DNA from: a virus
Strand: one strand, 5' to 3'
UHGV virus genome: UHGV-0202386
Length of the DNA: 15,272 nucleotides
The stretch's first letter is position 1. Each line of letters starts with the position of its first letter. A program made the position numbers and the translations under genes. The notes beneath the pieces were generated by a model. It was not told the DNA's origin, ran no database searches, and was given only the letters and a program-made list of their open reading frames with translations. Below are positions 1,872 through 14,080 of the stretch, in pieces.

Positions 1872-2075
1872 ATGACGGAGGCAATAGTGTTAAGCGCTGA
1901 TCGCTTTATACGTGAAAAAGAATGTCAGCAACTTACAGGCCTGAGCCGCTCATGTCGGTATCGCCTGGAGAAGACTGGACAATTCCCATCACGGCGTAAA
2001 CTCGGCGGTCGTTCCGTTGGCTGGTCTTTATCCGAAGTTCTGGCATGGAAGGACAGCCGCGAGGCAGTTCACTAA
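1872..2075 (+). CDS. alpA: AlpA-family phage transcriptional regulator / excisionase-like HTH protein
   Basis: Translation RFIREKECQQLTGLSRSCRYRLEKTGQFPSRRKLGGRSVGWSLSEVLAWK matches the AlpA/Phage_AlpA pattern (..GxSRSTIYRL...FP....LG.RSVGW..SEV..W). Alternative in-frame GTG start at 1887 is preceded by GGAGG at 1877-1881. Confidence 0.8.
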   Translation: MTEAIVLSADRFIREKECQQLTGLSRSCRYRLEKTGQFPSRRKLGGRSVGWSLSEVLAWKDSREAVH

Positions 2076-2081
2076 TCAGGC

Positions 2082-2100
2082 TGGCGGCGCACCGCCGCCA
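2082..2100 (+). other. GC-rich stem-loop (TGGCGGCG-CAC-CGCCGCCA) immediately 3' of alpA, with no U-tract
   Basis: Perfect 8-bp stem and 3-nt loop, seen directly. No T-run on either strand, so not a canonical intrinsic terminator. Confidence 0.5.
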
Positions 2101-2216
2101 CCCATCCACTAACACAGAGATCTAACCATGAATACTGGATATACGCCCGAACAGGGGCGGGGCTTCGTTCGTCCTGGTGAAACTAAAAAGCCATGTTATC
2201 GGGTATTTTCAGGCAT

Positions 2217-2287
2217 AAAAAAAGCGGCCCCGATAAGGAACCGCCTTTCTGAACAATTAACCTGCTGCGAAAAAAATGGATCAGTGC
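2217..2287 (-). ncRNA. Candidate small RNA of about 70 nt: extended -10 promoter to intrinsic terminator, in an ORF-free gap
   Basis: Minus-strand TGaTATAAT (plus 2294-2302) gives a predicted start near 2285-2287. Terminator hairpin at 2224-2248 (AAGGCGG..CCGCUU, about 11 bp with wobbles, 5-nt loop) is followed by U7 (plus A-run 2217-2223). No ORF of 60 aa or more on either strand here except the rejected long + frame. Confidence 0.3.
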
Positions 2288-2293
2288 AGGGGA

Positions 2294-2302
2294 ATTATAT
2301 CA
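2294..2302 (-). promoter_or_regulatory. Extended -10 promoter element TGaTATAAT (minus strand), no convincing -35
   Basis: Reverse complement of plus 2294-2302 reads TGATATAAT. Read directly. Confidence 0.35.
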
Positions 2303-2340
2303 ACCGTGTGGTGAAGCGCCACTATTGCCGGATAACAGGC

Positions 2341-2369
2341 AAAACAAAGGCGACCGCAAAAGGGTCGCC
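2341..2369 (-). terminator. Intrinsic terminator of the leftward RHH operon
   Basis: Perfect 7-bp stem GGCGACC/GGTCGCC (2349-2355 / 2363-2369) with 7-nt loop. On the minus strand it is followed by TTTGTTTTG (plus 2341-2348). Lies 66 nt downstream of the stop of ORF 2436-2609. Confidence 0.55.
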
Positions 2370-2435
2370 AGTGGGAACAAGGGAAAACAAAAGCATCACC
2401 AACAATGCCACATTTGCGGCTGGTGGGCAATGTGA

Positions 2436-2609
2436 TCAGTCAGATTTGGTTCGTTCCAAGGTTTGCAACGAGAGTTTTTTCCTGCGCTCTTTAAGGAATT
2501 TCTCAAGAGCAAACGAACAAGGTGCGAATCTTTCTGATTCATGCTCTATCTTTCTGCGCCGTCTTTTCCGTGTCGGTGATAATGTTTTGGTCAATTCTTT
2601 ATCGGTCAT
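2436..2609 (-). CDS. Hypothetical small basic protein (57 aa), second gene of the leftward operon
   Basis: ORF MTDKELTKTLSPTRKRRRRKIEHESERF..., AGGG 8 nt upstream of ATG 2609. An alternative ATG at 2624 has no RBS. A perfect 7-bp hairpin (2631-2637 / 2651-2657) separates it from the upstream gene. Supported mainly by the downstream terminator; no recognisable family. Confidence 0.35.
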   Translation of the reverse strand: MTDKELTKTLSPTRKRRRRKIEHESERFAPCSFALEKFLKERRKKLSLQTLERTKSD

Positions 2610-2666
2610 TGTGTTGCCCTGCATAGCAATGCGCCGTAATACCTTACACCACGGCGCTGGTGATGG

Positions 2667-2846
2667 TTACTCCTGCTCTTTGGCCTTGCGGCGCTGGCGG
2701 CGTTTGATCTCGCCTTGCATTGACGCAATGATGAATTGTGATGTGCTTTCGCCTGATTCTTTCACTGATTCCATGGCGTTTACTATTTCGTGTGGTACAC
2801 GAGCCTTTAGAGCTTGTGATTTTGCGTTTGTTGTACCCGTTGCCAT
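2667..2846 (-). CDS. Small ribbon-helix-helix (Arc/CopG-like) DNA-binding protein, candidate repressor of the divergent early promoter
   Basis: 59-aa ORF MATGTTNAKSQALKARVPHEIVNAMESVKESGESTSQFIIASMQGEIKRRQRRKAKEQE. By eye: beta strand (KARVP), helix, helix, basic tail. RBS AGAGGA upstream of ATG 2846. Faces a promoter overlapped by direct repeats. Confidence 0.65.
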   Translation of the reverse strand: MATGTTNAKSQALKARVPHEIVNAMESVKESGESTSQFIIASMQGEIKRRQRRKAKEQE

Positions 2847-2907
2847 TTCTATTCCTCTGTTGGATTGGTGGGGGACAGTATACACAGAAAAAGCACAAAT
2901 AAAACCC

Positions 2908-2948
2908 TTGACGTGGGCCACACCTAAAGCATATAGTGGGCCACACCT
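2908..2948 (+). promoter_or_regulatory. Rightward early promoter (-35 TTGACG 2908-2913, 18-bp spacer, -10 TATAGT 2932-2937) overlapped by two 13-bp direct-repeat operators GTGGGCCACACCT
   Basis: Repeat copies at 2913-2925 and 2936-2948 (perfect 13/13, 23-bp spacing), one over the -35/spacer and one over the -10/start. Sits in the divergent region between the RHH gene and the rightward ORF cluster. Confidence 0.5.
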
Positions 2949-2974
2949 TGAGATTGTCAAGGTGCATAAATGCA

Positions 2975-3009
2975 AAGCCCCGCAAGTGTCGTTACCACTC
3001 GCAGGGCTT
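2975..3009. other. Strong stem-loop in the 5' leader of the rightward operon; on the minus strand it reads as hairpin plus UUUGCAUUUAU
   Basis: AAGCCCCGCAAGTG (2975-2988) pairs with CACTCGCAGGGCTT (2996-3009) at 12 of 14 positions, 7-nt loop. No T-run on plus; T-rich tail on minus (plus 2961-2974). Confidence 0.5.
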
Positions 3010-3045
3010 CTAACCACCAACGATAGAAAGTGTATCGAGGTAGCT

Positions 3046-3252
3046 ATGAGAAATTATACCAGACACCCGCAAGGGCGGGACTCGTACAACCTGAATAAAT
3101 ACATCTGGCGTTTTATCGCCCTGAGCACGGCACAACCGCGCGTGATTACCATTGAGGCCACCAGCGAACAGGAAGCGCGTCAGCAATCTCCTGATGGCTG
3201 CGTGATGGTATTCGCTGCCCGTATTCGTCAGGGGGTACGCCATGTGCAATAA
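3046..3252 (+). CDS. Hypothetical protein (68 aa), first gene of the rightward early operon
   Basis: ATG 3046 preceded by GAGGT (3037-3041). Translation MRNYTRHPQGRDSYNLNKYIWRFIALSTAQPRVITIEATSEQEARQQSPDGCVMVFAARIRQGV. A vague resemblance to small Icd/Ash-like satellite proteins is my impression only. Confidence 0.6.
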   Translation: MRNYTRHPQGRDSYNLNKYIWRFIALSTAQPRVITIEATSEQEARQQSPDGCVMVFAARIRQGVRHVQ

Positions 3253-3481
3253 CACCCGTCCGGACGCAGCCGCCGAAGCCATCAAAACGCTGATGCACGC
3301 GCTGATTGATATTTCTGTTATCGCAGACAAGGCGCATAAGCGCGCCACCAGCGAAACAGAATATGCCGGGGCTTTCGTTCCTCACTCACTGGCTGTTATG
3401 CAACTTAGTGCGGATATGGCGCTGAATGAGGCTAAAGCCATCCTGATTGCTGATTGTGAAAATGGGGGGGGTTATGCGTGA
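3242..3481 (+). CDS. Hypothetical protein (79 aa)
   Basis: ATG 3242 overlaps the upstream stop; AGGGGG 9 nt upstream. No recognisable family. Confidence 0.55.
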   Translation: MCNNTRPDAAAEAIKTLMHALIDISVIADKAHKRATSETEYAGAFVPHSLAVMQLSADMALNEAKAILIADCENGGGYA

Positions 3482-3707
3482 TGATCGTTTTAATTCCCTG
3501 AAACAGGAATTTTCCGGCGTTCCTGATGATGCGGCTGATGCGCTTTCGTCAATGCCAGAGCTTATTAGAGCGGCTTTTTTCTTACTTTCCACGAGAGAAT
3601 ATAAATCAACGGGGCTTGATGTACTGAATATCGCCGCCGATTATGCGGAATATGTGGCAGAGGCGCGTTATAGAAGAAAATTTCCTGAGGATGTAAGCCA
3701 TGCGTGA
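3474..3707 (+). CDS. Hypothetical protein (77 aa from ATG 3474; alternative ATG 3462)
   Basis: G-rich RBS GGGGGGG upstream. Overlaps neighbours in the coupled ATGA/TGA style. Acidic protein, unknown. Confidence 0.5.
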   Translation: MRDDRFNSLKQEFSGVPDDAADALSSMPELIRAAFFLLSTREYKSTGLDVLNIAADYAEYVAEARYRRKFPEDVSHA

Positions 3708-3933
3708 TATTTACCACGAAACAATAGACCGCGCATTTCTTGCACTTTCTCACAGTGAAAACATGCTGGGAATATTGCGCATATGGCTTGAAACACTTGG
3801 CGACAATGAACGCGACAAACAAAAATCAAGAATTGCCACGGCATTAATAACGCTTCTTGAGCCTGTAATAATGGAACTGCAAGAAATAGATCTATTGCAC
3901 GACAGATATAAAGAACAGCACACCGGAGAATAA
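3700..3933 (+). CDS. Hypothetical protein (77 aa)
   Basis: ATG 3700 overlaps the upstream stop; GAGGA at 3686-3690. Unknown family. Confidence 0.5.
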   Translation: MRDIYHETIDRAFLALSHSENMLGILRIWLETLGDNERDKQKSRIATALITLLEPVIMELQEIDLLHDRYKEQHTGE

Positions 3934-3938
3934 AAATA

Positions 3939-4238
3939 ATGAAACTTAAATATTCTGGCTTAACTGCCAGTGGCAACACTCACCCTAAATTTACGCGCGG
4001 CGATATTTACCGCGACCAGTACGGCGGCACGGTAATGATTAAGGGCGTGGAAGAACGGCGCGTAACCTACCGCCGTGAAGGTTACGAATATGATTGCGTG
4101 ATGCCTGTTTATCAGTTCCGGCGTGATTTTTCTCTGGTACAGACCGCGCCGCATAACGTGTCCACCAGCAACGCCAGGGCACGGGCAAACATCCAGAAGC
4201 TGAAAACCATGATTAACGGATTCAGGGGTAAAAAATGA
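3939..4238 (+). CDS. Hypothetical protein (99 aa), possibly DUF4222-like
   Basis: Motif YRDQYGGTVMIKGVEERRVTYRREGYEYDCVMPVYQFRRDF reminds me of DUF4222 proteins of enterobacterial prophages (memory only). Stop overlaps the primase start. Confidence 0.5.
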   Translation: MKLKYSGLTASGNTHPKFTRGDIYRDQYGGTVMIKGVEERRVTYRREGYEYDCVMPVYQFRRDFSLVQTAPHNVSTSNARARANIQKLKTMINGFRGKK

Positions 4239-6049
4239 AACTGGCACCGAACGTAAAACAGCAGTCACGCGGCATAAAACACAAAGAAACAGAAGTCATT
4301 ATTTTTGCGGGTAGTGATGCCTGGTCACACGCAAAACAATGGCAGGAACATGACGCGCGTATGGCCGGAGATAATGAGCCTCCTGTGTGGCTTGGGGAGC
4401 AGCAGTTATCCGAACTGGATAAGCTGCAAATTGTGCCGGAAGGCAGAAAATCCGTGCGCATATTCAGGGCCGGATATCTTGCGCCAGTAATGATAAAGGC
4501 GATTGGTCAGAAGCTGGCGGCGGCAGGCGTACAGGATGCAAATTTTTATCCTGAGGGTATGCACGGTCAGGAGGTGCAGAACTGGCGCGAATATCTGGCC
4601 CGTGAGCGCCAGAATCTTTCTGATGGTCTGGTGATTCAGCTTCCTGTTAAGAAAAAAACAGAAGACAGCGCCGCACCACTGGCGCTTAACCAGATGGGAG
4701 CAAGCCAGCGCGGCGAAGTTCTCCTGGCACATTATGGCGGTGAACTGGCGATTCATGCCGACTCTGACACTGTTCACCATTACAACGGCGTTGTATGGGA
4801 GCCGATTCAGGATAAAGAGTTACAGCGTGCTATGGCGCAGATTTTCATTGATGCGGAGATCAGCTATTCGCAGAACGCCATTAAATCGGCGGTCGATACC
4901 ATGAAGTTAAGTTTGCCTGTAATGGGGAATACAGCCCGTAACCTGATTGGATTCAGTAACGGGGTATTTGATACCAGAACAGGTAATTTTCGGGAGCATA
5001 ACAAAAACGACTGGTTGTTAATTGCCAGTGAATTACCTTTCAGCCCACCAGCAGAGGGGGAAACGCTGGCAACACATGCGCCGAATTTCTGGAAGTGGTT
5101 ACGCTGCTCGGTGGCAGAGAATGACCGCAAGACGGATCGCGTGCTGGCTGCATTATTCATGGTGCTGGCGAACCGGTACGACTGGCAGTTATTCATTGAG
5201 GTAACAGGTCCAGGGGGAAGTGGTAAAAGCGTGATGGCGGAGATTTGCACTATGCTGGCGGGTAAGGCCAACACAGTATCGGCAAGCATGAAGGCGCTGG
5301 AAGATGCAAGGGAACGCGCGTTAGTGGTTGGCTTTTCGCTGATTATCATGCCGGATATGACCCGCTACGCTGGTGATGGCGCAGGAATTAAGGCCATTAC
5401 AGGCGGTGACAAGGTGGCAATCGACCCGAAGCATAAAGCCCCCTACTCAACACGCATTCAGGCGGTCGTGCTGGCGGTGAACAATAACGCCATGTCATTC
5501 AGTGACCGCAGCGGGGGGATCTCACGTCGTCGGGTGATATTCAATTTTTCGGAGGTTGTACCGGAGAACGAGCGCGACCCCATGCTGGCAGAAAAAATAG
5601 AAGGAGAGCTGGCGGTTGTGATTCGCCATCTGCTTACTCGTTTTTCTGACCAGGACGAAGCTAAACGCCTGCTGTATGAGCAGCAGAAATCAGAAGAAGC
5701 TCTGGTGATAAAACGCGAGGGCGATTCGCTGGTGGACTTCTGTGGCTATCTCATGTCGTCGGTAATGTGTGATGGTCTGTTAGTGGGTAATGCCGAAATT
5801 ATTCCGTTCAGTCCGCGCAGGTATCTTTATCACGCCTATCTGGCATATATGAGGGCACACGGATTCGGTAAACCTGTAACACTGACGCGCTTCGGTAAAG
5901 ATATGCCGGGGGCAATGGCGGAATATGGCAGGGAGTATATAAAACGGAAAACGAAGCACGGTTTGCGTTCAAATGTGACACTGACAGAGGATTCAGAAGA
6001 CTGGATGCCATCATGTGCATCGGTCACAAATGACGACAGCAAAAATTAA
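4235..6049 (+). CDS. Replication initiator: P4-alpha-like primase / SF3 helicase (Walker A GPGGSGKS)
   Basis: 604-aa ORF. Walker A in VTGPGGSGKSVMAE, Walker B-like LIIMPDM, sensor AVVLAVNNN. Followed directly by TGTTCACC iterons, as for P4 alpha and its ori. Confidence 0.8.
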   Translation: MKLAPNVKQQSRGIKHKETEVIIFAGSDAWSHAKQWQEHDARMAGDNEPPVWLGEQQLSELDKLQIVPEGRKSVRIFRAGYLAPVMIKAIGQKLAAAGVQDANFYPEGMHGQEVQNWREYLARERQNLSDGLVIQLPVKKKTEDSAAPLALNQMGASQRGEVLLAHYGGELAIHADSDTVHHYNGVVWEPIQDKELQRAMAQIFIDAEISYSQNAIKSAVDTMKLSLPVMGNTARNLIGFSNGVFDTRTGNFREHNKNDWLLIASELPFSPPAEGETLATHAPNFWKWLRCSVAENDRKTDRVLAALFMVLANRYDWQLFIEVTGPGGSGKSVMAEICTMLAGKANTVSASMKALEDARERALVVGFSLIIMPDMTRYAGDGAGIKAITGGDKVAIDPKHKAPYSTRIQAVVLAVNNNAMSFSDRSGGISRRRVIFNFSEVVPENERDPMLAEKIEGELAVVIRHLLTRFSDQDEAKRLLYEQQKSEEALVIKREGDSLVDFCGYLMSSVMCDGLLVGNAEIIPFSPRRYLYHAYLAYMRAHGFGKPVTLTRFGKDMPGAMAEYGREYIKRKTKHGLRSNVTLTEDSEDWMPSCASVTNDDSKN

Positions 6050-6062
6050 ACTTATGGAATAA

Positions 6063-6293
6063 CTGTTCACCACTGTTCACCCTGTTATAAATATCTTTTA
6101 TATCAGTACATTATAGGGTGAACAGTTATTTGTGAACTGTTCACCAAACTATTCACTGTTCACCTTTTTGATTATTTATTGAGCTTTAAGGGTGAACAGT
6201 GGTGAACAGTTGGTGAATAGTTTTTGTGAAACTGTTCACCCCTTAACGTTATGAATAAAAAGGGAAAATCTCAAAAGGTGAACAGGTGAAGGG
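6063..6293. repeat. Origin of replication: about 11 copies of the 9-mer CTGTTCACC (P4 type-I iteron TGTTCACC) in both orientations
   Basis: Plus-orientation copies at 6063, 6073, 6137, 6156, 6232; reverse-orientation GGTGAACAG at 6117, 6191, 6201, 6277, with variants at 6212 and 6285. AT-rich spacers. Lies immediately downstream of the primase. Confidence 0.8.
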
Positions 6294-7040: not shown

Positions 7041-7571
7041 ATGACAACGCTGACCATTAACCGGAAGCCGAAAGGCATTTACGGCACGCCGCAGAAAACG
7101 ACGCAGGCGGCGCAAGAGCAGGATAAAACCACATCGGTGCATAAAGTGATACCCGGCAATCAGAACGCACAGCAGAAGCCCACAGGGGCGACACCGTGGC
7201 AGCATATGACCAAAAGGCAGCGCAAAAACCGCCGACGCGTTAACCGCCTCACTGAGATGTGGCCTGACTTATTCAGCCATAAAGCACCGAAGCCGCTTAA
7301 GGTGGGGATATTCGACGACCTGATGCAGGATATCGCCGTCAGGGGGCTGGCATTCGGGTCGGGGGTATTACGTGCGACGCTGGCATCCTATGCGCAGTCT
7401 CCGCGCTATTACCGCGCCCTGATAGCTGGTGGCGCACGTTACGACCTGAAGGGCCAGCCATGTGGGGAAGTGACACCACAGGAACAGCAGGAGGCAGAAA
7501 CACGGCTGATGGTGCTGAATGAGAAGCACAAGCGCCAGCGCCGGGCAGCAAAGGGGGATACATGCCAGTGA
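7041..7571 (+). CDS. ProQ/FinO-domain RNA-binding protein (FinO-like RNA chaperone)
   Basis: PKPLKVGIFDDLMQDIAVRG...LRATLASYAQSPRYYRALIAGGARYDLKGQPCGEVTPQEQQEA aligns by eye to the ProQ/FinO core (PLKIGIFQDL...[35 protein letters not shown]). Lys/Gln-rich N-terminal extension. RBS AGGGGAAGG. Confidence 0.8.
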   Translation: MTTLTINRKPKGIYGTPQKTTQAAQEQDKTTSVHKVIPGNQNAQQKPTGATPWQHMTKRQRKNRRRVNRLTEMWPDLFSHKAPKPLKVGIFDDLMQDIAVRGLAFGSGVLRATLASYAQSPRYYRALIAGGARYDLKGQPCGEVTPQEQQEAETRLMVLNEKHKRQRRAAKGDTCQ

Positions 7572-12435: not shown

Positions 12436-14080
12436 GTACGCAGAAGGCGTAAAAAACGGCAAAATTACGGCCTGTAAACGACTGAAACAGGCCGTTAAAC
12501 GGTATTTTTCTGACCTTGAAAACCCCCTTTACACGTTCGATCCGGAGGTCGTGGAGCGGTTTATTGCCTTTTCCAGGGTGTGTCCGCACGTAAAAGGCGC
12601 AATGCGCGGTAGCCCCATTGAGCTGGAGCCGTGGCAGCAGTTCGCCTTTGCGTGCATCCTGGGCTTTAAGGTTAAGGCCACCGGACGGCGCAAATACACC
12701 AGCGCATTCATTGAAGTGCCGCGAAAAAATGCCAAATCCACGGTCGCCGCTATCCTGGCTAACTGGTTTCTGGTTATGGAAAACGGGCAGCAGGATATTT
12801 ACACCGCCGCTGTGAGTCGTGATCAGGCGCGGATCGTGTTTGATGATGCGCGTCAGATGTGCCTTTTATCCCGACCGTTACGAAAGCGGGTAAATATTCA
12901 GGCACACAAGGTGATACACCCGAAAACCAACAGCCTGTTAAAGCCACTGGCAGCAAAAGCGGCAACCATTGAAGGTACAAACCCGAGTCTTGCCATTGTG
13001 GATGAATATCACCTGCACCCTGACAACGGGGTTTATTCCGCGCTTGAACTGGGAATGGGGGCGCGTCCGGAGGGGCTGTTATTTGCCATCACCACATCGG
13101 GGAGCAACGTTGTTTCAGCCTGTAAACAACACTATGACTATTGCTGCCAGATACTGGATGGTGAAGAGGTGAACGAATCCATGTTCGTGCTGATTTACGA
13201 GCTGGATGATGAAAGCGAGGTTGACGATCCGGCGATGTGGATAAAGGCGAATCCCAATATCGATGTTTCCGTCGATCGTGAAAAACTGGCCTCAACCATC
13301 CAGAAAGCGCGGGGTATTCCGTCGCAGTGGGTGGAAATGCTCACCAAGCGATTCAATATCTGGTGTCAGGGGGCTACGCCGTGGATGGGTAACGGTGCAT
13401 GGGCGGAGTGCGCCGGAACGTTCGCGGAGGCGGATTTATACGGTCAGGAGTGCTACGCGGGGCTGGACTTATCATCAACCAGCGATATTTCCAGCGTGTG
13501 CTATGCCTTTCCGGTCGGTAAAAAGATTATGCTGGTTTCCCGTCACTATCTGCCGGAATTTCAGCTACAGAACCCCGCCAATAAAAACCGCGCCATCTAT
13601 CGCCAGTGGGTAAAGGCGGGCTGGATACGCACAACACCGGGTGACTGCATTGATTATGACCGTATCCGTGATGACATCATGGCGGATGCAGAGAATTTCA
13701 ATATCAGGCTGGTGGGCTTCGATACATGGAACGCCACGCACCTGAGGACGCAGCTACAGGGGGCAGGATTTGAGGTGGAGCCGTTCCCGCAAACATACCT
13801 TCGTTTCAGTCCGGCGGCGAAATCGTTCGAAGTTTTTGTTAACCGGAAGGTGATTGTGCATCGTGGCGATCCGGTGCTGGCCTGGTCAATGAGTAATGTT
13901 GTGATGCAGAGTGACGCGAACGCCAATATCAAGCCGAACAAGAAAAAATCATCCAACAAGATAGACCCGAGCGTTGCGGCTCTGATGGCGTTTGGCACAT
14001 TCCAGGCAGAACATGAGGAATTTGCATTTGATATAAGCGACAGCCACAAAGAGCGGCTTGCGGCGTTTGATGGGGTATGA
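12419..14080 (+). CDS. terL: Terminase large subunit (Terminase_1-like ATPase/nuclease); apparent TTG start overlapping terS by 17 nt
   Basis: 553 aa. Size, position after terS and a conserved-looking N-terminal region (PWQQFAFACILGFKV..., DIYTAAVSRDQARIVFDDAR). No in-frame ATG until codon 62; GAGGA at 12408-12412 precedes TTG 12419. Confidence 0.85.
   Translation: MTAWHEYAEGVKNGKITACKRLKQAVKRYFSDLENPLYTFDPEVVERFIAFSRVCPHVKGAMRGSPIELEPWQQFAFACILGFKVKATGRRKYTSAFIEVPRKNAKSTVAAILANWFLVMENGQQDIYTAAVSRDQARIVFDDARQMCLLSRPLRKRVNIQAHKVIHPKTNSLLKPLAAKAATIEGTNPSLAIVDEYHLHPDNGVYSALELGMGARPEGLLFAITTSGSNVVSACKQHYDYCCQILDGEEVNESMFVLIYELDDESEVDDPAMWIKANPNIDVSVDREKLASTIQKARGIPSQWVEMLTKRFNIWCQGATPWMGNGAWAECAGTFAEADLYGQECYAGLDLSSTSDISSVCYAFPVGKKIMLVSRHYLPEFQLQNPANKNRAIYRQWVKAGWIRTTPGDCIDYDRIRDDIMADAENFNIRLVGFDTWNATHLRTQLQGAGFEVEPFPQTYLRFSPAAKSFEVFVNRKVIVHRGDPVLAWSMSNVVMQSDANANIKPNKKKSSNKIDPSVAALMAFGTFQAEHEEFAFDISDSHKERLAAFDGV

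What the first reader, a model, noticed from the sequence alone, without database searches (positions are those of the whole stretch)
2436..2948. Leftward RHH-protein operon facing a promoter overlapped by 13-bp direct-repeat operators
A 59-aa ribbon-helix-helix-like protein and a 57-aa basic ORF are transcribed leftward, ending at a clean terminator (2341-2369). They face a rightward promoter (TTGACG-18-TATAGT) overlapped by two perfect copies of GTGGGCCACACCT, and RHH proteins usually bind tandem repeats. This is the likely master switch for the early/replication operon. The two-gene layout with an inter-gene hairpin (2631-2657) could alternatively be a small toxin-antitoxin-like pair.
Basis: partly seen in the sequence, partly recalled or inferred. 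Interest (0 to 1): 0.6.

Follow-up and report, generated by a model that had tools for sequence, protein, structure and literature searches.

The report
Phage-satellite repressor with matched operators
A 59-residue ribbon-helix-helix protein and three matching DNA sites form the likely repressor ("immunity") module of an E. coli phage satellite, a component not yet identified for Gram-negative satellites of this kind, and the module lies inside a phage-P4-like read-through frame next to an unannotated antisense RNA.

Summary
Two perfect GTGGGCCACACCT copies overlap a TTGACG-18-TATAGT promoter. They face a leftward 59-aa gene, a 57-aa gene and a terminator.

The 59-aa protein (YlcI/YnfO family) models as a ribbon-helix-helix fold. 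In 75 related loci from many Enterobacterales genera, three 11-bp sites of the form GTG-N5-CAC sit at fixed positions:
- O1 lies on the repressor's own -10.
- O2 lies in the spacer of the rightward promoter.
- O3 lies on its -10/+1.

The central bases of these sites change together with beta-strand residues 12 and 14. A nearly identical island has swapped exactly this cassette, while its alpA stays 97% and its icd-like gene 100% identical. So the protein very probably binds the repeats and represses both promoters.

It is not a toxin-antitoxin pair, because the 57-aa gene is confined to Escherichia/Shigella. It is also probably not the whole switch:
- The repressor gene lies antisense inside a stop-free frame running from alpA into the Icd/Kil-like gene, as with P4 eta/kil.
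- A conserved roughly 80-nt cis-antisense RNA covers that gene's ribosome-binding site.

All binding and regulation remain inferred.

The parts
2667..2846 (-). 59-aa ribbon-helix-helix protein gene (YlcI/YnfO family), the candidate immunity repressor
2436..2609 (-). 57-aa basic ORF (alternative start at 2624 gives 62 aa). Escherichia/Shigella-specific accessory gene of unknown function.
   Evidence: 43 homologues at 55-98% identity with in-frame indels and a conserved ERFAPCxFxLEKFLKE core. Not found next to the RHH gene in the loci of other genera. AF2 pLDDT 68.
2349..2369 (-). Intrinsic terminator of the leftward transcript
   Evidence: 7-bp stem with 6 GC pairs and a T-rich tail. -15.1 kcal/mol, z = -3.9.
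2631..2657 (-). Hairpin between the two leftward ORFs (no U-tract, not a terminator)
   Evidence: Present in the fold, but its energy is not unusual (z = -1.5).
2868..2878 (.). Operator O1 (degenerate here: CTGTCCCCCAC in gene orientation, 8/11). Overlaps the -10/+1 of the repressor's own promoter.
   Evidence: At -32 from the ATG in 69/75 loci. At least 9/11 identical to O2 in 57/75 loci.
2878..2883 (-). -10 hexamer TATACT of the leftward promoter P_L
   Evidence: TATACT at the same position in 59/75 loci. No good -35, so the consensus scanner did not call it.
2913..2925 (.). Operator O2 (core 2913-2923, GTGGGCCACAC), in the -35/spacer of P_R
   Evidence: Perfect repeat. At -77 from the RHH ATG in 68/75 loci, always followed by the -35 of the opposite strand.
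2936..2948 (.). Operator O3 (core 2936-2946), overlapping the -10 and +1 of P_R
   Evidence: Perfect repeat. At least 9/11 identical to O2 in 69/75 loci, as a direct copy in 41 and an inverted copy in 28.
2908..2937 (+). Rightward promoter P_R (TTGACG-18-TATAGT), internal to the eta-like frame. Analogue of P4 P_LE.
   Evidence: Scanner hit with 10/12 matches. The -35 TTGAN abuts O2 in all loci analysed.
2966..3046 (-). Predicted cis-antisense RNA of about 80 nt. It has a 5' hairpin with the anti-SD in its loop and a 3' terminator hairpin (2974-3010). Ends are approximate.
   Evidence: Covariation in 13/18 pairs. 64 A.C cells against 2 G.U cells, so 97.4% paired on the antisense strand and 88.7% on the sense strand. 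Alifold -28.7 against -6.5 kcal/mol. Single-sequence fold -41.6 kcal/mol, z = -6.8. Weak full-length Rfam matches to R1162 ctRNA and SymR.
3053..3061 (-). Extended -10 promoter TGgTATAAT for the antisense RNA, inside the first codons of the icd-like gene
   Evidence: Read from the sequence. A TAnnnT hexamer sits at the equivalent position in essentially all loci, although the encoded residues differ.
3046..3252 (+). Icd/Kil-like gene (68 aa), first gene of the P_R operon
   Evidence: NF033153 E 1e-19. P4 Kil matches the same model at E 1.6e-21.
2128..3252 (+). Eta-like stop-free frame (374 codons). It runs from just after alpA, antisense through both leftward genes and the operators, in frame into the icd-like gene.
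   Evidence: Open for at least 600 nt in 58/75 loci. Upstream of the icd-like ATG, the in-frame stop-free stretch has a median of 538 nt against 15 nt in the other two frames. Stop-free across the RHH gene in 70/70 unique genes against 49% after codon resampling. Substitutions spread evenly over codon positions.
1872..2075 (+). alpA (Vis/AlpA-family regulator), upstream of and co-directional with the eta-like frame
   Evidence: Pfam Phage_AlpA E 3.4e-18. AlpA is the inducer of EcCICFT073 (PMC6092414).

Best explanation
The window is an E. coli capsid-forming PICI. The 59-aa gene encodes a ribbon-helix-helix repressor.

**Proposed binding.** Dimers bind three 11-bp operators of the form GTG-N5-CAC. 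The invariant S10 and R16 on the DNA-facing side of the beta-strand would read the GTG/CAC arms. The variable residues 12 and 14 would read the central bases.

**Proposed repression.** O2 (2913-2923) and O3 (2936-2946) occlude the spacer and the -10/+1 of the rightward promoter P_R. This shuts off the icd/kil-like-to-primase operon. O1 (2868-2878) lies on the -10/+1 of the repressor's own promoter and gives autoregulation, which is weakened in this allele.

**Role in the element.** This is the protein 'immunity' layer of a P4-like control region. P_R is internal to a long frame (eta-like, 2128-3252) that begins after alpA and ends as the Icd/Kil-like protein. A cis-antisense RNA (about 3046->2966) additionally blocks the icd-like ribosome-binding site.

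**Proposed induction.** Helper-induced AlpA drives transcription from upstream. Translation of the open frame then carries it through the repressed region, as eta translation does in P4. This convergent transcription would also run against the repressor gene.

**Shown versus inferred.** Shown computationally: the fold, the operator geometry, protein-operator co-variation, the cassette swap, the conserved open frame, and the RNA structure with its strand. Inferred: DNA binding, repression, the residue-to-base code, the read-through mechanism, and expression of the antisense RNA.
For: **Fold**
- NF041551 E 7.9e-19.
- AF2 pLDDT 90 with an extended N-terminus followed by helices 19-28 and 35-58.

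**Operators**
- O1 sits at -32 in 69/75 loci and O2 at -77 in 68/75. O3 is at least 9/11 identical to O2 in 69/75 loci.
- The central N5 of O1 and O2 shares 4.06 of 5 bases within a locus against 1.61 between loci. None of 10,000 permutations reached this.
- Loci sharing residues 12 and 14 share 4.39 of 5 core bases, against 1.37 otherwise. This is the strongest association of the residue pairs tried.

**Cassette swap**
- The window and the AST19 island are about 100% identical over 1918-2437 and 2996-4275, but only 55-72% identical over 2718-2995.
- AlpA is 97% and Icd-like 100% identical between them, while RHH is 66% identical and the operators differ.
- Xenorhabdus loci with the same beta-strand as AST19 have the same operator despite diverged spacers.

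**Coding status**
- Codon-position entropy is 0.72/0.50/1.39.

**P4 parallel**
- P4 Kil and the window protein hit the same NF033153 model.
- The conserved in-frame open stretch is documented.
- The P4 eta/kil mechanism is described in PMC10111431.

**Antisense RNA**
-.

**Literature gap**
Against: - No experiment was done, so binding and repression are inferred.
- Foldseek against the PDB and a PDB sequence-profile search found nothing. Pfam gives no RHH family.
- The AF2 monomer shows no formed beta-strand. That is expected for an RHH monomer, but it is not evidence for one.
- Co-variation statistics are inflated by shared ancestry. Another residue pair (23, 24) also scores high at 3.84 of 5, and the Mantel r is only 0.22.
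- AlpA overexpression alone induces EcCICFT073, which carries an identical RHH protein (PMC6092414). So the repressor is not sufficient to hold the island once AlpA is made.
- O1 is degenerate in this window.
- The eta-like frame is interrupted in about 17 of 75 loci, including AST19.
- Co-resident islands carrying different classes is not statistically significant.
Confidence: 0.7

Rival explanations
1. The RHH repressor alone is the master switch. Induction occurs by inactivating it, for example through a helper-phage antirepressor as with SaPI Stl. P_R is the only route to the replication operon.
For: The operators overlap P_R. The gene is divergent from the replication operon, as Stl is. 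The C-terminal motif EIKRR is invariant across all specificity classes and could be a partner-binding surface.
Against: AlpA is required for EcCICFT073 induction, and its overexpression is sufficient (PMC6092414). A conserved open frame links alpA to the icd-like gene across the repressed region. A second, RNA-based block sits on the icd-like RBS. The protein is only 59 aa and has no separate sensor domain.
Confidence: 0.13
2. The two leftward genes are a type II toxin-antitoxin-like pair, with the RHH protein as antitoxin and autorepressor and the 57-aa basic protein as toxin.
Against: tblastn finds the 57-aa ORF only in the window and the two E. coli islands, not next to the RHH gene in the 78 genome-contig loci from other species and genera. 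Its database homologues are Escherichia/Shigella proteins. There is no conserved downstream partner: in Xenorhabdus the RHH gene is followed about 240 nt later by convergent alpA. The ORF matches no Pfam or NCBIfam family. A 57-nt gap with a hairpin (42 nt from the alternative ATG at 2624) separates the genes, rather than coupling. The RHH has no C-terminal toxin-binding extension beyond one long helix. Two of the three operators lie on the opposite promoter.
Confidence: 0.03
3. The repeats are bound by some other factor (AlpA, the Icd-like protein, the 57-aa protein or a host protein). The RHH protein has a different target.
For: PHROGs labels Icd-like families 'transcriptional repressor'. 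AlpA is a DNA-binding regulator of these islands.
Against: Between the window and AST19, AlpA is 97% and Icd-like 100% identical, yet the operators differ. Only the RHH N-terminus changes with them. The 57-aa ORF is absent from most loci that have the same operator layout. The PHROG label traces to the old 'cI gene product' annotation of the P4 eta ORF.
Confidence: 0.05
4. The RHH protein binds the repeats but acts mainly in competition between satellites (superinfection immunity) or as a local governor of the toxic Icd/Kil-like gene. It would have little role in the induction decision.
For: There are 33 distinct O2 11-mers and 29 beta-strand variants among 75 loci. Cassette exchange has occurred between otherwise identical islands. 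24 of 25 co-resident pairs differ in class. The first regulated gene belongs to the cell-division-inhibitor/Kil family.
Against: The heteroimmunity count is not significant against random pairing. P_R also heads the primase operon, so repression necessarily affects replication. This reading overlaps with the best explanation rather than excluding it.
Confidence: 0.07

Closest known systems
Phage P4 immunity/late-readthrough region (vis - eta/kil - P_LE - CI RNA - alpha)
   Same: The gene order is the same: an AlpA/Vis homologue, then a long frame containing an internal promoter, ending as a 65-68-aa Icd/Kil-family protein, then a primase. P4 Kil and the window protein hit the same NCBIfam model. 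P4 eta is a 214-codon ORF whose end is kil. The frame is conserved here too. The P4 mechanism, in which eta translation prevents termination, is described in PMC10111431.
   Different: P4 immunity is the CI RNA. Rfam C4, isrK and c4-a1b1 hit P4 strongly but not this window. P4 has no RHH homologue: tblastn against 50,697 phage records finds none. Here a protein repressor gene is embedded antisense in the frame and the RNA is cis-antisense. In this island the eta-like part shows no conserved protein sequence.
Omega repressor of pSM19035 (PDB 1irq, 2bnw) and other multi-site RHH repressors (Arc/Mnt of P22, CopG, AmrZ)
   Different: There is no detectable sequence similarity. The sites are 11 bp with palindromic arms and an asymmetric core, spaced 22-45 bp apart rather than abutting heptads. 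Helix 2 is longer and carries an invariant basic tail.
SaPI Stl / Gram-positive PICI Rpr master repressors
   Same: The position is the same: divergently transcribed from the replication operon and next to the integration genes. The presumed role of keeping the island silent is also the same.
   Different: From my own knowledge, Stl proteins are much larger helix-turn-helix proteins that are inactivated by binding helper-phage proteins. For Gram-negative PICIs the published inducer is the activator AlpA, and no repressor has been defined (PMC6092414).
R1162/RSF1010 repA countertranscript (Rfam RF00043) and SymR (RF01809)
   Same: All are cis-antisense RNAs of about 75-80 nt that start at or just inside the start codon. 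They have a 5' hairpin over the SD, a linker and a terminator hairpin. There are full-length model matches: 24.6 bits to RF00043 at 2975-3047 and 35.9 bits to SymR on the antisense strand of L010.
   Different: Both scores are below the gathering thresholds (55 and 61 bits), so this RNA is not a member of either family by Rfam's criteria. The regulated gene is Icd/Kil-like, not repA or symE.
E. coli K-12 YlcI (DLP12) and YnfO (Qin), DUF3950
   Same: They fall in the same NCBIfam family, NF041551. YlcI shows the same beta-alpha-G-x-S/T-alpha sequence pattern when read by eye.
   Different: Pairwise identity is only about 18%. YlcI lies next to nohD and cos in a lambdoid remnant, not in a satellite control region. 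I saw no GTG-N5-CAC triplet upstream of it. Neither protein has a reported function in the literature I could search.

Membership tests
Ribbon-helix-helix (MetJ/Arc/CopG) DNA-binding fold | N-terminal beta-strand followed by two helices joined by a G-x-S/T/N turn | tested here: met
Ribbon-helix-helix (MetJ/Arc/CopG) DNA-binding fold | Homodimer whose paired beta-strands enter the major groove | not testable with these tools
   Only a monomer could be modelled. Alternating polar (10, 12, 14, 16) and hydrophobic (13, 15, 17) residues fit a ribbon.
Ribbon-helix-helix (MetJ/Arc/CopG) DNA-binding fold | Cognate repeated operator sites at the regulated promoter | tested here: met
   Three sites at fixed positions that co-vary with the beta-strand. 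Physical binding was not tested.
Ribbon-helix-helix (MetJ/Arc/CopG) DNA-binding fold | Sequence match to a curated RHH family (Pfam RHH_1 or similar) | tested here: not met
   No Pfam RHH hit at E<=1. The PDB profile search found nothing relevant.
YlcI/YnfO family (NCBIfam NF041551) | Score above the curated cut-off | tested here: met
   67.4 bits against a cut-off of 30, E 7.9e-19. Also PHROG 949, E 1.7e-22.
Type II toxin-antitoxin module with RHH antitoxin | Conserved adjacent toxin gene co-inherited with the antitoxin | tested here: not met
   tblastn finds the 57-aa ORF only in the window and the two E. coli islands, and its database homologues are Escherichia/Shigella proteins. There is no common downstream ORF in other genera.
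Type II toxin-antitoxin module with RHH antitoxin | Partner belongs to a known toxin family | tested here: not met
   No Pfam or NCBIfam match. Only PHROG 21027, of unknown function. PADLOC and TA-specific libraries were not searched.
Phage P4-type control region | Icd/Kil-family gene as the in-frame terminal part of a longer ORF that starts after the vis/alpA homologue and contains the early promoter | tested here: met
   Window ORF 2128-3252. The same holds in 58/75 loci. P4 eta/kil serves as the reference.
Phage P4-type control region | CI/C4-type immunity RNA with seqA/isrK targets | tested here: not met
   No C4, isrK or c4-a1b1 hit in the window at E<=1, or at E<=10 in 2900-3100. The P4 positive control scores 74.9, 60.8 and 44.1 bits.
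Phage P4-type control region | Translation of the long ORF prevents Rho-dependent termination | not testable with these tools
   Only indirect evidence. The frame is kept open while the protein sequence drifts.
Rfam RF00043 (R1162 ctRNA) / RF01809 (SymR) | Score at or above the family's gathering threshold | tested here: not met
   24.6 bits against 55. 35.9 bits against 61 in L010. No hits at gathering threshold in 20 loci.
Gram-negative PICI / capsid-forming PICI | int, alpA, P4/D5-type primase, plus own capsid, protease, portal, connector, HNH, TerS and TerL, with no tail genes | tested here: met
   Pfam hits. RefSeq annotation of the AST19 island, about 100% identical over the flanks aligned (1918-2437 and 2996-4275) and 89% over the 1.1-kb query that spans the swapped cassette. 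Same control region as the CFT073 island.

The most novel reading that the evidence does not exclude
Gram-negative PICIs of this widespread Enterobacterales lineage, including the model island of CFT073, are kept silent by a previously unrecognised three-layer lock.

1. A family of tiny RHH immunity repressors in many interchangeable specificity classes (29 beta-strand variants and 33 O2 sequences among 75 loci), each matched to its own GTG-N5-CAC operators.
2. A SymR/ctRNA-like cis-antisense RNA on the Icd/Kil ribosome-binding site, possibly assisted by the island's own ProQ/FinO protein.
3. An AlpA-driven bypass that works by translating a long frame kept open on the opposite strand of the repressor gene. 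The repressor gene and the read-through frame would then be a selected, fully overlapping antisense pair.
Probability: 0.4. Interest if true: 0.82.

Novelty: new variant of a known kind. Interest (0 to 1): 0.7.

Why it matters
PICIs and capsid-forming PICIs move virulence and defence genes between enterobacteria and are being engineered as delivery vehicles. For the Gram-negative ones, the only known regulator is the activator AlpA. The founding paper states that a global repressor has not been identified.

This analysis gives a concrete candidate with exact operator coordinates. It gives a testable recognition rule in which residues 12 and 14 read the central bases. It also offers natural specificity swaps that could serve as orthogonal repressor-operator pairs.

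The analysis connects PICI control to the P4 eta/kil read-through logic. It predicts a new antisense RNA. It provides an unusually clean case of an antisense frame kept open at synonymous sites of a real gene: 70 of 70 genes are stop-free, against 49% expected.

The CFT073 island carries an identical module, so the predictions can be tested directly in an existing model system.

Tried and rejected
- **Pfam on the 59-aa and 57-aa proteins:** nothing.
- **tblastn of the RHH protein against 50,697 phage records:** no match, so I dropped the idea that it is a phage-borne repressor.
- **K-12 YlcI as a functional guide:** too distant, in a different context, and uncharacterised.
- **P4/P1-type C4/CI RNA in the leader:** rejected, with P4 as a positive control. 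I first read the hairpin plus 'CUAACCA' as a tRNA-like RNase P substrate on the sense strand. I dropped that reading when the A.C versus G.U asymmetry showed the structure is selected on the antisense strand.
- **Per-column mutual information between protein and operator:** saturated, because there are too many operator classes. I replaced it with the shared-residue test.
- **Mantel correlation:** weak (r = 0.22) and not much better for the beta-strand than for the rest of the protein. I report it as a caveat.
- **Heteroimmunity of co-resident islands:** the trend is right (24 of 25 pairs differ) but not significant.
- **Structure of the 57-aa protein:** pLDDT 68, too poor for a fold search.
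- **Extra operator copies elsewhere in the window:** none beyond chance.
- **The 374-codon frame as an ordinary protein gene:** rejected. It has no domain, a Cys/Trp-rich translation and substitutions spread evenly over codon positions.
- **Literature searches for YlcI/YnfO, DUF3950, RHH with PICI, and EcCICFT073:** no prior description found. The library lacks most subscription journals, so this is not proof of absence.
Full report
**Context**

The window is an Escherichia-type phage satellite. It encodes:
- a tyrosine integrase (304-1533);
- an AlpA-family regulator (1872-2075; Pfam Phage_AlpA E 3.4e-18);
- two small leftward ORFs;
- an Icd-like protein (3046-3252; NF033153 E 1e-19);
- DUF4222 and a D5/P4-type primase;
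- SSB, a ProQ/FinO protein, a major capsid protein and a large terminase.

The 2200-3300 stretch matches 1,700 of 5,426 complete E. coli genomes. The best full-length match is an island in strain AST19 that RefSeq annotates with the full capsid-forming PICI gene set. Another match is the single CFT073 island between roxA and phoQ. By content and position I take that island to be the model PICI EcCICFT073; this is an inference.

**Checking the observation**

- The 59-aa ORF (2667-2846, minus strand) has an AGGA Shine-Dalgarno.
- The second ORF is 57 aa from the ATG at 2609, or 62 aa from 2624.
- A terminator-like hairpin lies at 2369->2349 on the minus strand and folds at -15.1 kcal/mol, z = -3.9.
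- TTGACG-18-TATAGT lies at 2908-2937. One such match is what shuffled sequence also gives (mean 1.2), so alone it proves nothing.
- GTGGGCCACACCT occurs perfectly at 2913-2925 and 2936-2948. By my arithmetic about 6e-4 such pairs are expected within 45 bp in 900 bp.
- The 2631-2657 hairpin exists but is energetically unremarkable (z = -1.5).

**The 59-aa protein has a ribbon-helix-helix fold**

- It scores 67 bits on NCBIfam YlcI/YnfO against a cut-off of 30, and it matches PHROG 949, a family of unknown function.
- Fifty-five database relatives, all Enterobacterales or unnamed metagenomic sequences, are 55-98% identical.
- Their alignment shows invariant S10, R16, P18, E33, F38 and E46-I-K-R-R50. 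It also shows a G-E-S-T turn and a highly variable stretch at residues 11-15.
- AlphaFold2 with this alignment gives pLDDT 90, an extended N-terminus and helices 19-28 and 35-58.
- No Pfam RHH model and no PDB sequence matched. Membership of the fold therefore rests on the model.

**The repeats are conserved operators that track the protein**

A scan of one genome per species returned 78 loci with a relative of the gene. I oriented all loci on the RHH gene. The upstream 135 nt has one architecture:
- O2, an 11-mer usually of the form GTG-N5-CAC, sits at -77 from the ATG in 68 of 75 loci. It is always followed by NTCAA, which is the -35 TTGAN of the opposite-strand promoter.
- O1 sits at -32 in 69 of 75 loci. 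It begins inside a TATACT hexamer, which is present in 59 of 75 loci and is evidently the -10 of the RHH gene's own promoter.
- O3 sits at -99 to -112. It is at least 9/11 identical to O2 in 69 of 75 loci, as a direct copy in 41 and an inverted copy in 28.

In window coordinates these are O1 2868-2878, O2 2913-2923 and O3 2936-2946.

The arms are nearly constant but the central bases differ between loci and agree within a locus. O1 and O2 share 4.06 of 5 central bases within a locus, against 1.61 between loci. None of 10,000 permutations reached this value.

Each beta-strand variant has its own core:

| Beta-strand residues 11-15 | Operator (RHH-gene orientation) |
|---|---|
| QALKA, QSLKS | GTGTGGCCCAC |
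| KKLEA, RKLEA | GTGTCAGCCAC |
| QQLNA | GTGAATCGCAC |
| QTLAA, QTIAA | GTGTTGAACAC |
| LQVSV | GTGAACACCAC |
| QMTTV | GTGAAATACAC |

Loci that share residues 12 and 14 share 4.39 of 5 core bases, against 1.37 otherwise. That is the strongest association among the residue pairs I tried. Another pair (23, 24) reaches 3.84, so shared ancestry contributes.

Residues 10, 12, 14 and 16 alternate with hydrophobic 13, 15 and 17. A reasonable but unproven reading follows. Invariant S10 and R16 would read the invariant arms, and residues 12 and 14 would read the core.

**A natural swap experiment excludes the other candidate binding proteins**

The window and the AST19 island are essentially identical from 1918 to 2437 and from 2996 to at least 4275. 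They are only 55-72% identical over 2718-2995.

The diverged block holds exactly the N-terminal two-thirds of the RHH gene, all three operators and the first 50 nt of the rightward leader. Across it, AlpA stays 97% and the Icd-like protein 100% identical. RHH drops to 66% identity, and the operators change from GTGTGGCCCAC to GTGTCAGCCAC.

Xenorhabdus islands have the AST19-type beta-strand and the AST19-type operator, although their spacers are quite different. CFT073 has an RHH protein identical to the window's and the same operators.

So the sites follow the RHH protein. They do not follow AlpA, Icd-like or the 57-aa ORF.

**The second ORF and the toxin-antitoxin idea**

The 57-aa ORF looks like a real gene. 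It has 43 homologues at 55-98% identity, in-frame indels and a conserved ERFAPCxFxLEKFLKE core. The homologues come only from Escherichia and Shigella. It has no family assignment beyond a PHROG of unknown function, and its model is poor (pLDDT 68).

In other genera nothing conserved follows the RHH gene. In Xenorhabdus the next feature is the convergent alpA about 240 nt away. A co-inherited toxin partner, the defining feature of a type II module, is therefore absent.

**A conserved open frame on the opposite strand**

While listing ORFs I noticed that the plus strand is stop-free for 374 codons, from 2128 to 3252. This frame starts just after alpA. It runs antisense through both leftward genes, the operators and the leader, and continues in frame into the icd-like gene. 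This is not a quirk of the window.
- In 48 of 74 loci the frame of the icd-like ATG stays open for 411-1101 nt upstream. The median is 538 nt, against 15 nt for the other two frames.
- In 58 of 75 loci the open stretch across the RHH gene is at least 600 nt and ends as the Icd-like protein.
- Across the RHH coding region, that antisense frame has no stop in 70 of 70 unique genes. The other two antisense frames average 2.5 and 3.7 stops.
- Resampling synonymous codons from the family's own usage leaves only 49% of genes stop-free, with a maximum of 61% in 200 trials. The RHH family also contains no tyrosine; a Tyr codon is one of the two ways a stop can arise in that frame.

The RHH frame is nevertheless the one coding for a conserved protein. 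Its codon-position entropy is 0.72/0.50/1.39. The upstream part of the long frame drifts freely. Window-versus-CFT073 substitutions fall 19/22/22 on the three codon positions, and the indels are net in frame. It has no Pfam domain, apart from a sub-threshold Bro-N trace in CFT073.

**This is the architecture of phage P4**

In the P4 record, vis (ORF88) is followed by a 214-codon ORF, eta. Its last 65 codons are kil. Kil hits the same Icd-like model as the window protein, at E 1.6e-21.

PMC10111431 summarises the P4 mechanism:
- A constitutive promoter inside eta is silenced by the CI RNA.
- Kil is a truncated Eta.
- Full-length Eta is translated only from an upstream late promoter, coupled to the alpA homologue.
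- Its translation prevents termination, so that transcription reads through.

The window has the frame, the internal promoter, the Kil homologue and the AlpA homologue. It has no CI. Rfam C4, isrK and c4-a1b1 score 75, 61 and 44 bits on P4 but give nothing here.

**A cis-antisense RNA stands where CI would act**

The leader between P_R and the icd-like ATG is conserved in about 70 loci. It consists of two hairpins joined by CUAACCACAA.
- On a 40-sequence alignment, 13 of 18 pairs show compensatory changes. 88.7% of cells pair, against 78% in shuffles and 31-43% when the partners are slid.
- The non-pairing cells are almost all A.C: 64, against only 2 G.U. On the opposite strand these become G.U wobbles, raising pairing to 97.4%.
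- RNAalifold gives -28.7 kcal/mol and 23 pairs on the antisense strand, against -6.5 kcal/mol on the sense strand.
- The window's antisense strand folds at -41.6 kcal/mol, z = -6.8. The 5' hairpin carries the anti-Shine-Dalgarno in its loop. A perfect 15-bp stem follows, then UUUGCAUUUAU.
- An extended -10, TGgTATAAT, lies at 3061->3053 on the minus strand. It would start transcription at about 3045-3047.
- A TAnnnT hexamer occupies the equivalent place in essentially every locus, although the overlapping codons specify different residues (His, Ser, Cys, Asp). In each case the synonymous choice ends in T.
- Covariance models for the R1162 repA countertranscript region and for SymR match end to end but below threshold: 24.6 bits against 55, and 35.9 against 61.

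I therefore predict a leftward RNA of about 80 nt that blocks translation of the Icd/Kil-like gene. Its expression has not been shown.

**How it most likely works**

In the quiescent island the RHH dimer occupies O2 and O3 and keeps RNA polymerase off P_R. It limits its own synthesis at O1. Any P_R transcript that escapes is untranslatable because the antisense RNA covers the ribosome-binding site. By analogy with P4 and P1 such a transcript would then be prone to termination.

On helper infection, AlpA is made and activates its own promoter (PMC6092414). That transcript continues into the open frame. Ribosomes translating the frame carry RNA polymerase through the repressed region and deliver the Icd/Kil domain in frame, without needing the blocked ribosome-binding site. 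The convergent transcription would also run against the RHH gene.

The first half of this account, the repressor and its operators, is well supported by comparative evidence. The second half is inference from conserved anatomy and the P4 precedent.

**Comparison and novelty**

RHH repressors with repeated operators are textbook, and P4 eta/kil is known. I could not find the following described in the searchable literature:
- this repressor family;
- its operator code and exchangeable specificity cassettes;
- its antisense embedding in the read-through frame;
- the antisense RNA.

[quoted passage not shown] I rate this a new variant of a known kind.

**Caveats**

- Nothing here is experimental.
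- The co-variation statistics are not phylogenetically corrected.
- The frame is interrupted in about 17 loci, including AST19.
- The heteroimmunity trend among co-resident islands is not significant.
- The literature library omits most subscription journals.

Noticed in passing
window 2128-3252 (+): A 374-codon stop-free frame runs from just after alpA, antisense through both leftward genes and the operators, in frame into the icd-like gene. It is conserved in 58/75 related loci and maintained at synonymous sites of the RHH gene (70/70 stop-free against 49% expected). It matches the P4 eta/kil nesting.
   Followed up: yes
window ~2966-3046 (-), promoter 3053-3061 (-): A predicted cis-antisense RNA of about 80 nt over the icd-like RBS and start codon. 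It shows strong covariation, and the structure is selected on the antisense strand (64 A.C against 2 G.U). It has a conserved TAnnnT -10 and sub-threshold full-length matches to the R1162 ctRNA and SymR models.
   Followed up: yes
window 2718-2995 versus L001 (AST19) ~13520-13800: A recombinant cassette. The two islands are about 100% identical on both sides but 55-72% identical across the RHH N-terminus, the operators and the 5' leader. A smaller diverged patch lies at 2438-2517, the C-terminus of the 57-aa ORF.
   Followed up: yes
window 7041-7571 (+): The island encodes a ProQ/FinO-family RNA chaperone (Pfam E 4.8e-24). From my own knowledge, this family is known for assisting cis-antisense RNA pairing, so it might serve the predicted antisense RNA.
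   Followed up: no
window 6090-6270: A dense array of GGTGAACAG-type direct and inverted repeats downstream of the primase gene, AT-rich at 33% GC. This is probably the replication origin. It produced spurious sub-threshold microRNA-model hits in Rfam.
   Followed up: no
L003, L019, L025, L031, L033, L034, L041, L072, L079 (between int and alpA): The Rfam int-alpA RNA motif (RF02996) is present above gathering score in 9 of 20 related loci scanned. It was not detected in the window's int-alpA spacer (1534-1871).
   Followed up: no
window 2798-2818 (+): A terminator-like hairpin with tail ATTTTGCGTT on the plus strand, inside the RHH coding region and upstream of P_R. It could stop untranslated read-through from alpA. 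It lies in the variable beta-strand codons, so it is unlikely to be conserved.
   Followed up: no
window 2944-2964 (+): A perfect palindrome, CACCTTGA-gattg-TCAAGGTG, at the predicted 5' end of the P_R transcript, abutting O3. Similar CCTTGA-N5-TCAAGG palindromes occur in several other loci (L021, L042, L059). It could be a 5' stabilising hairpin or an extra protein site.
   Followed up: partly
window 2083-2099 (+): A GC-rich hairpin, GGCGGCG-cacc-GCCGCC, immediately after the alpA stop codon, with no U-tract. It lies between alpA and the ATG (2128) of the eta-like frame.
   Followed up: no
A1 alignment, residues 46-52 of the RHH protein (window 2691-2711): The C-terminal helix motif E-I-K-R-R-(Q-R) is invariant across all operator-specificity classes. 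This suggests a conserved contact, with a partner protein, the DNA backbone or another dimer, that is unrelated to site specificity.
   Followed up: no
L002 (CFT073) 13566-14039: RefSeq annotates a 157-aa 'Icd-like' protein that overlaps the RHH gene on the opposite strand. This is an internal-start call within the eta-like frame, and it shows that annotation pipelines stumble over this open frame. The PHROG label 'transcriptional repressor' for Icd-like families traces to the old 'cI gene product' annotation of P4 eta.
   Followed up: partly
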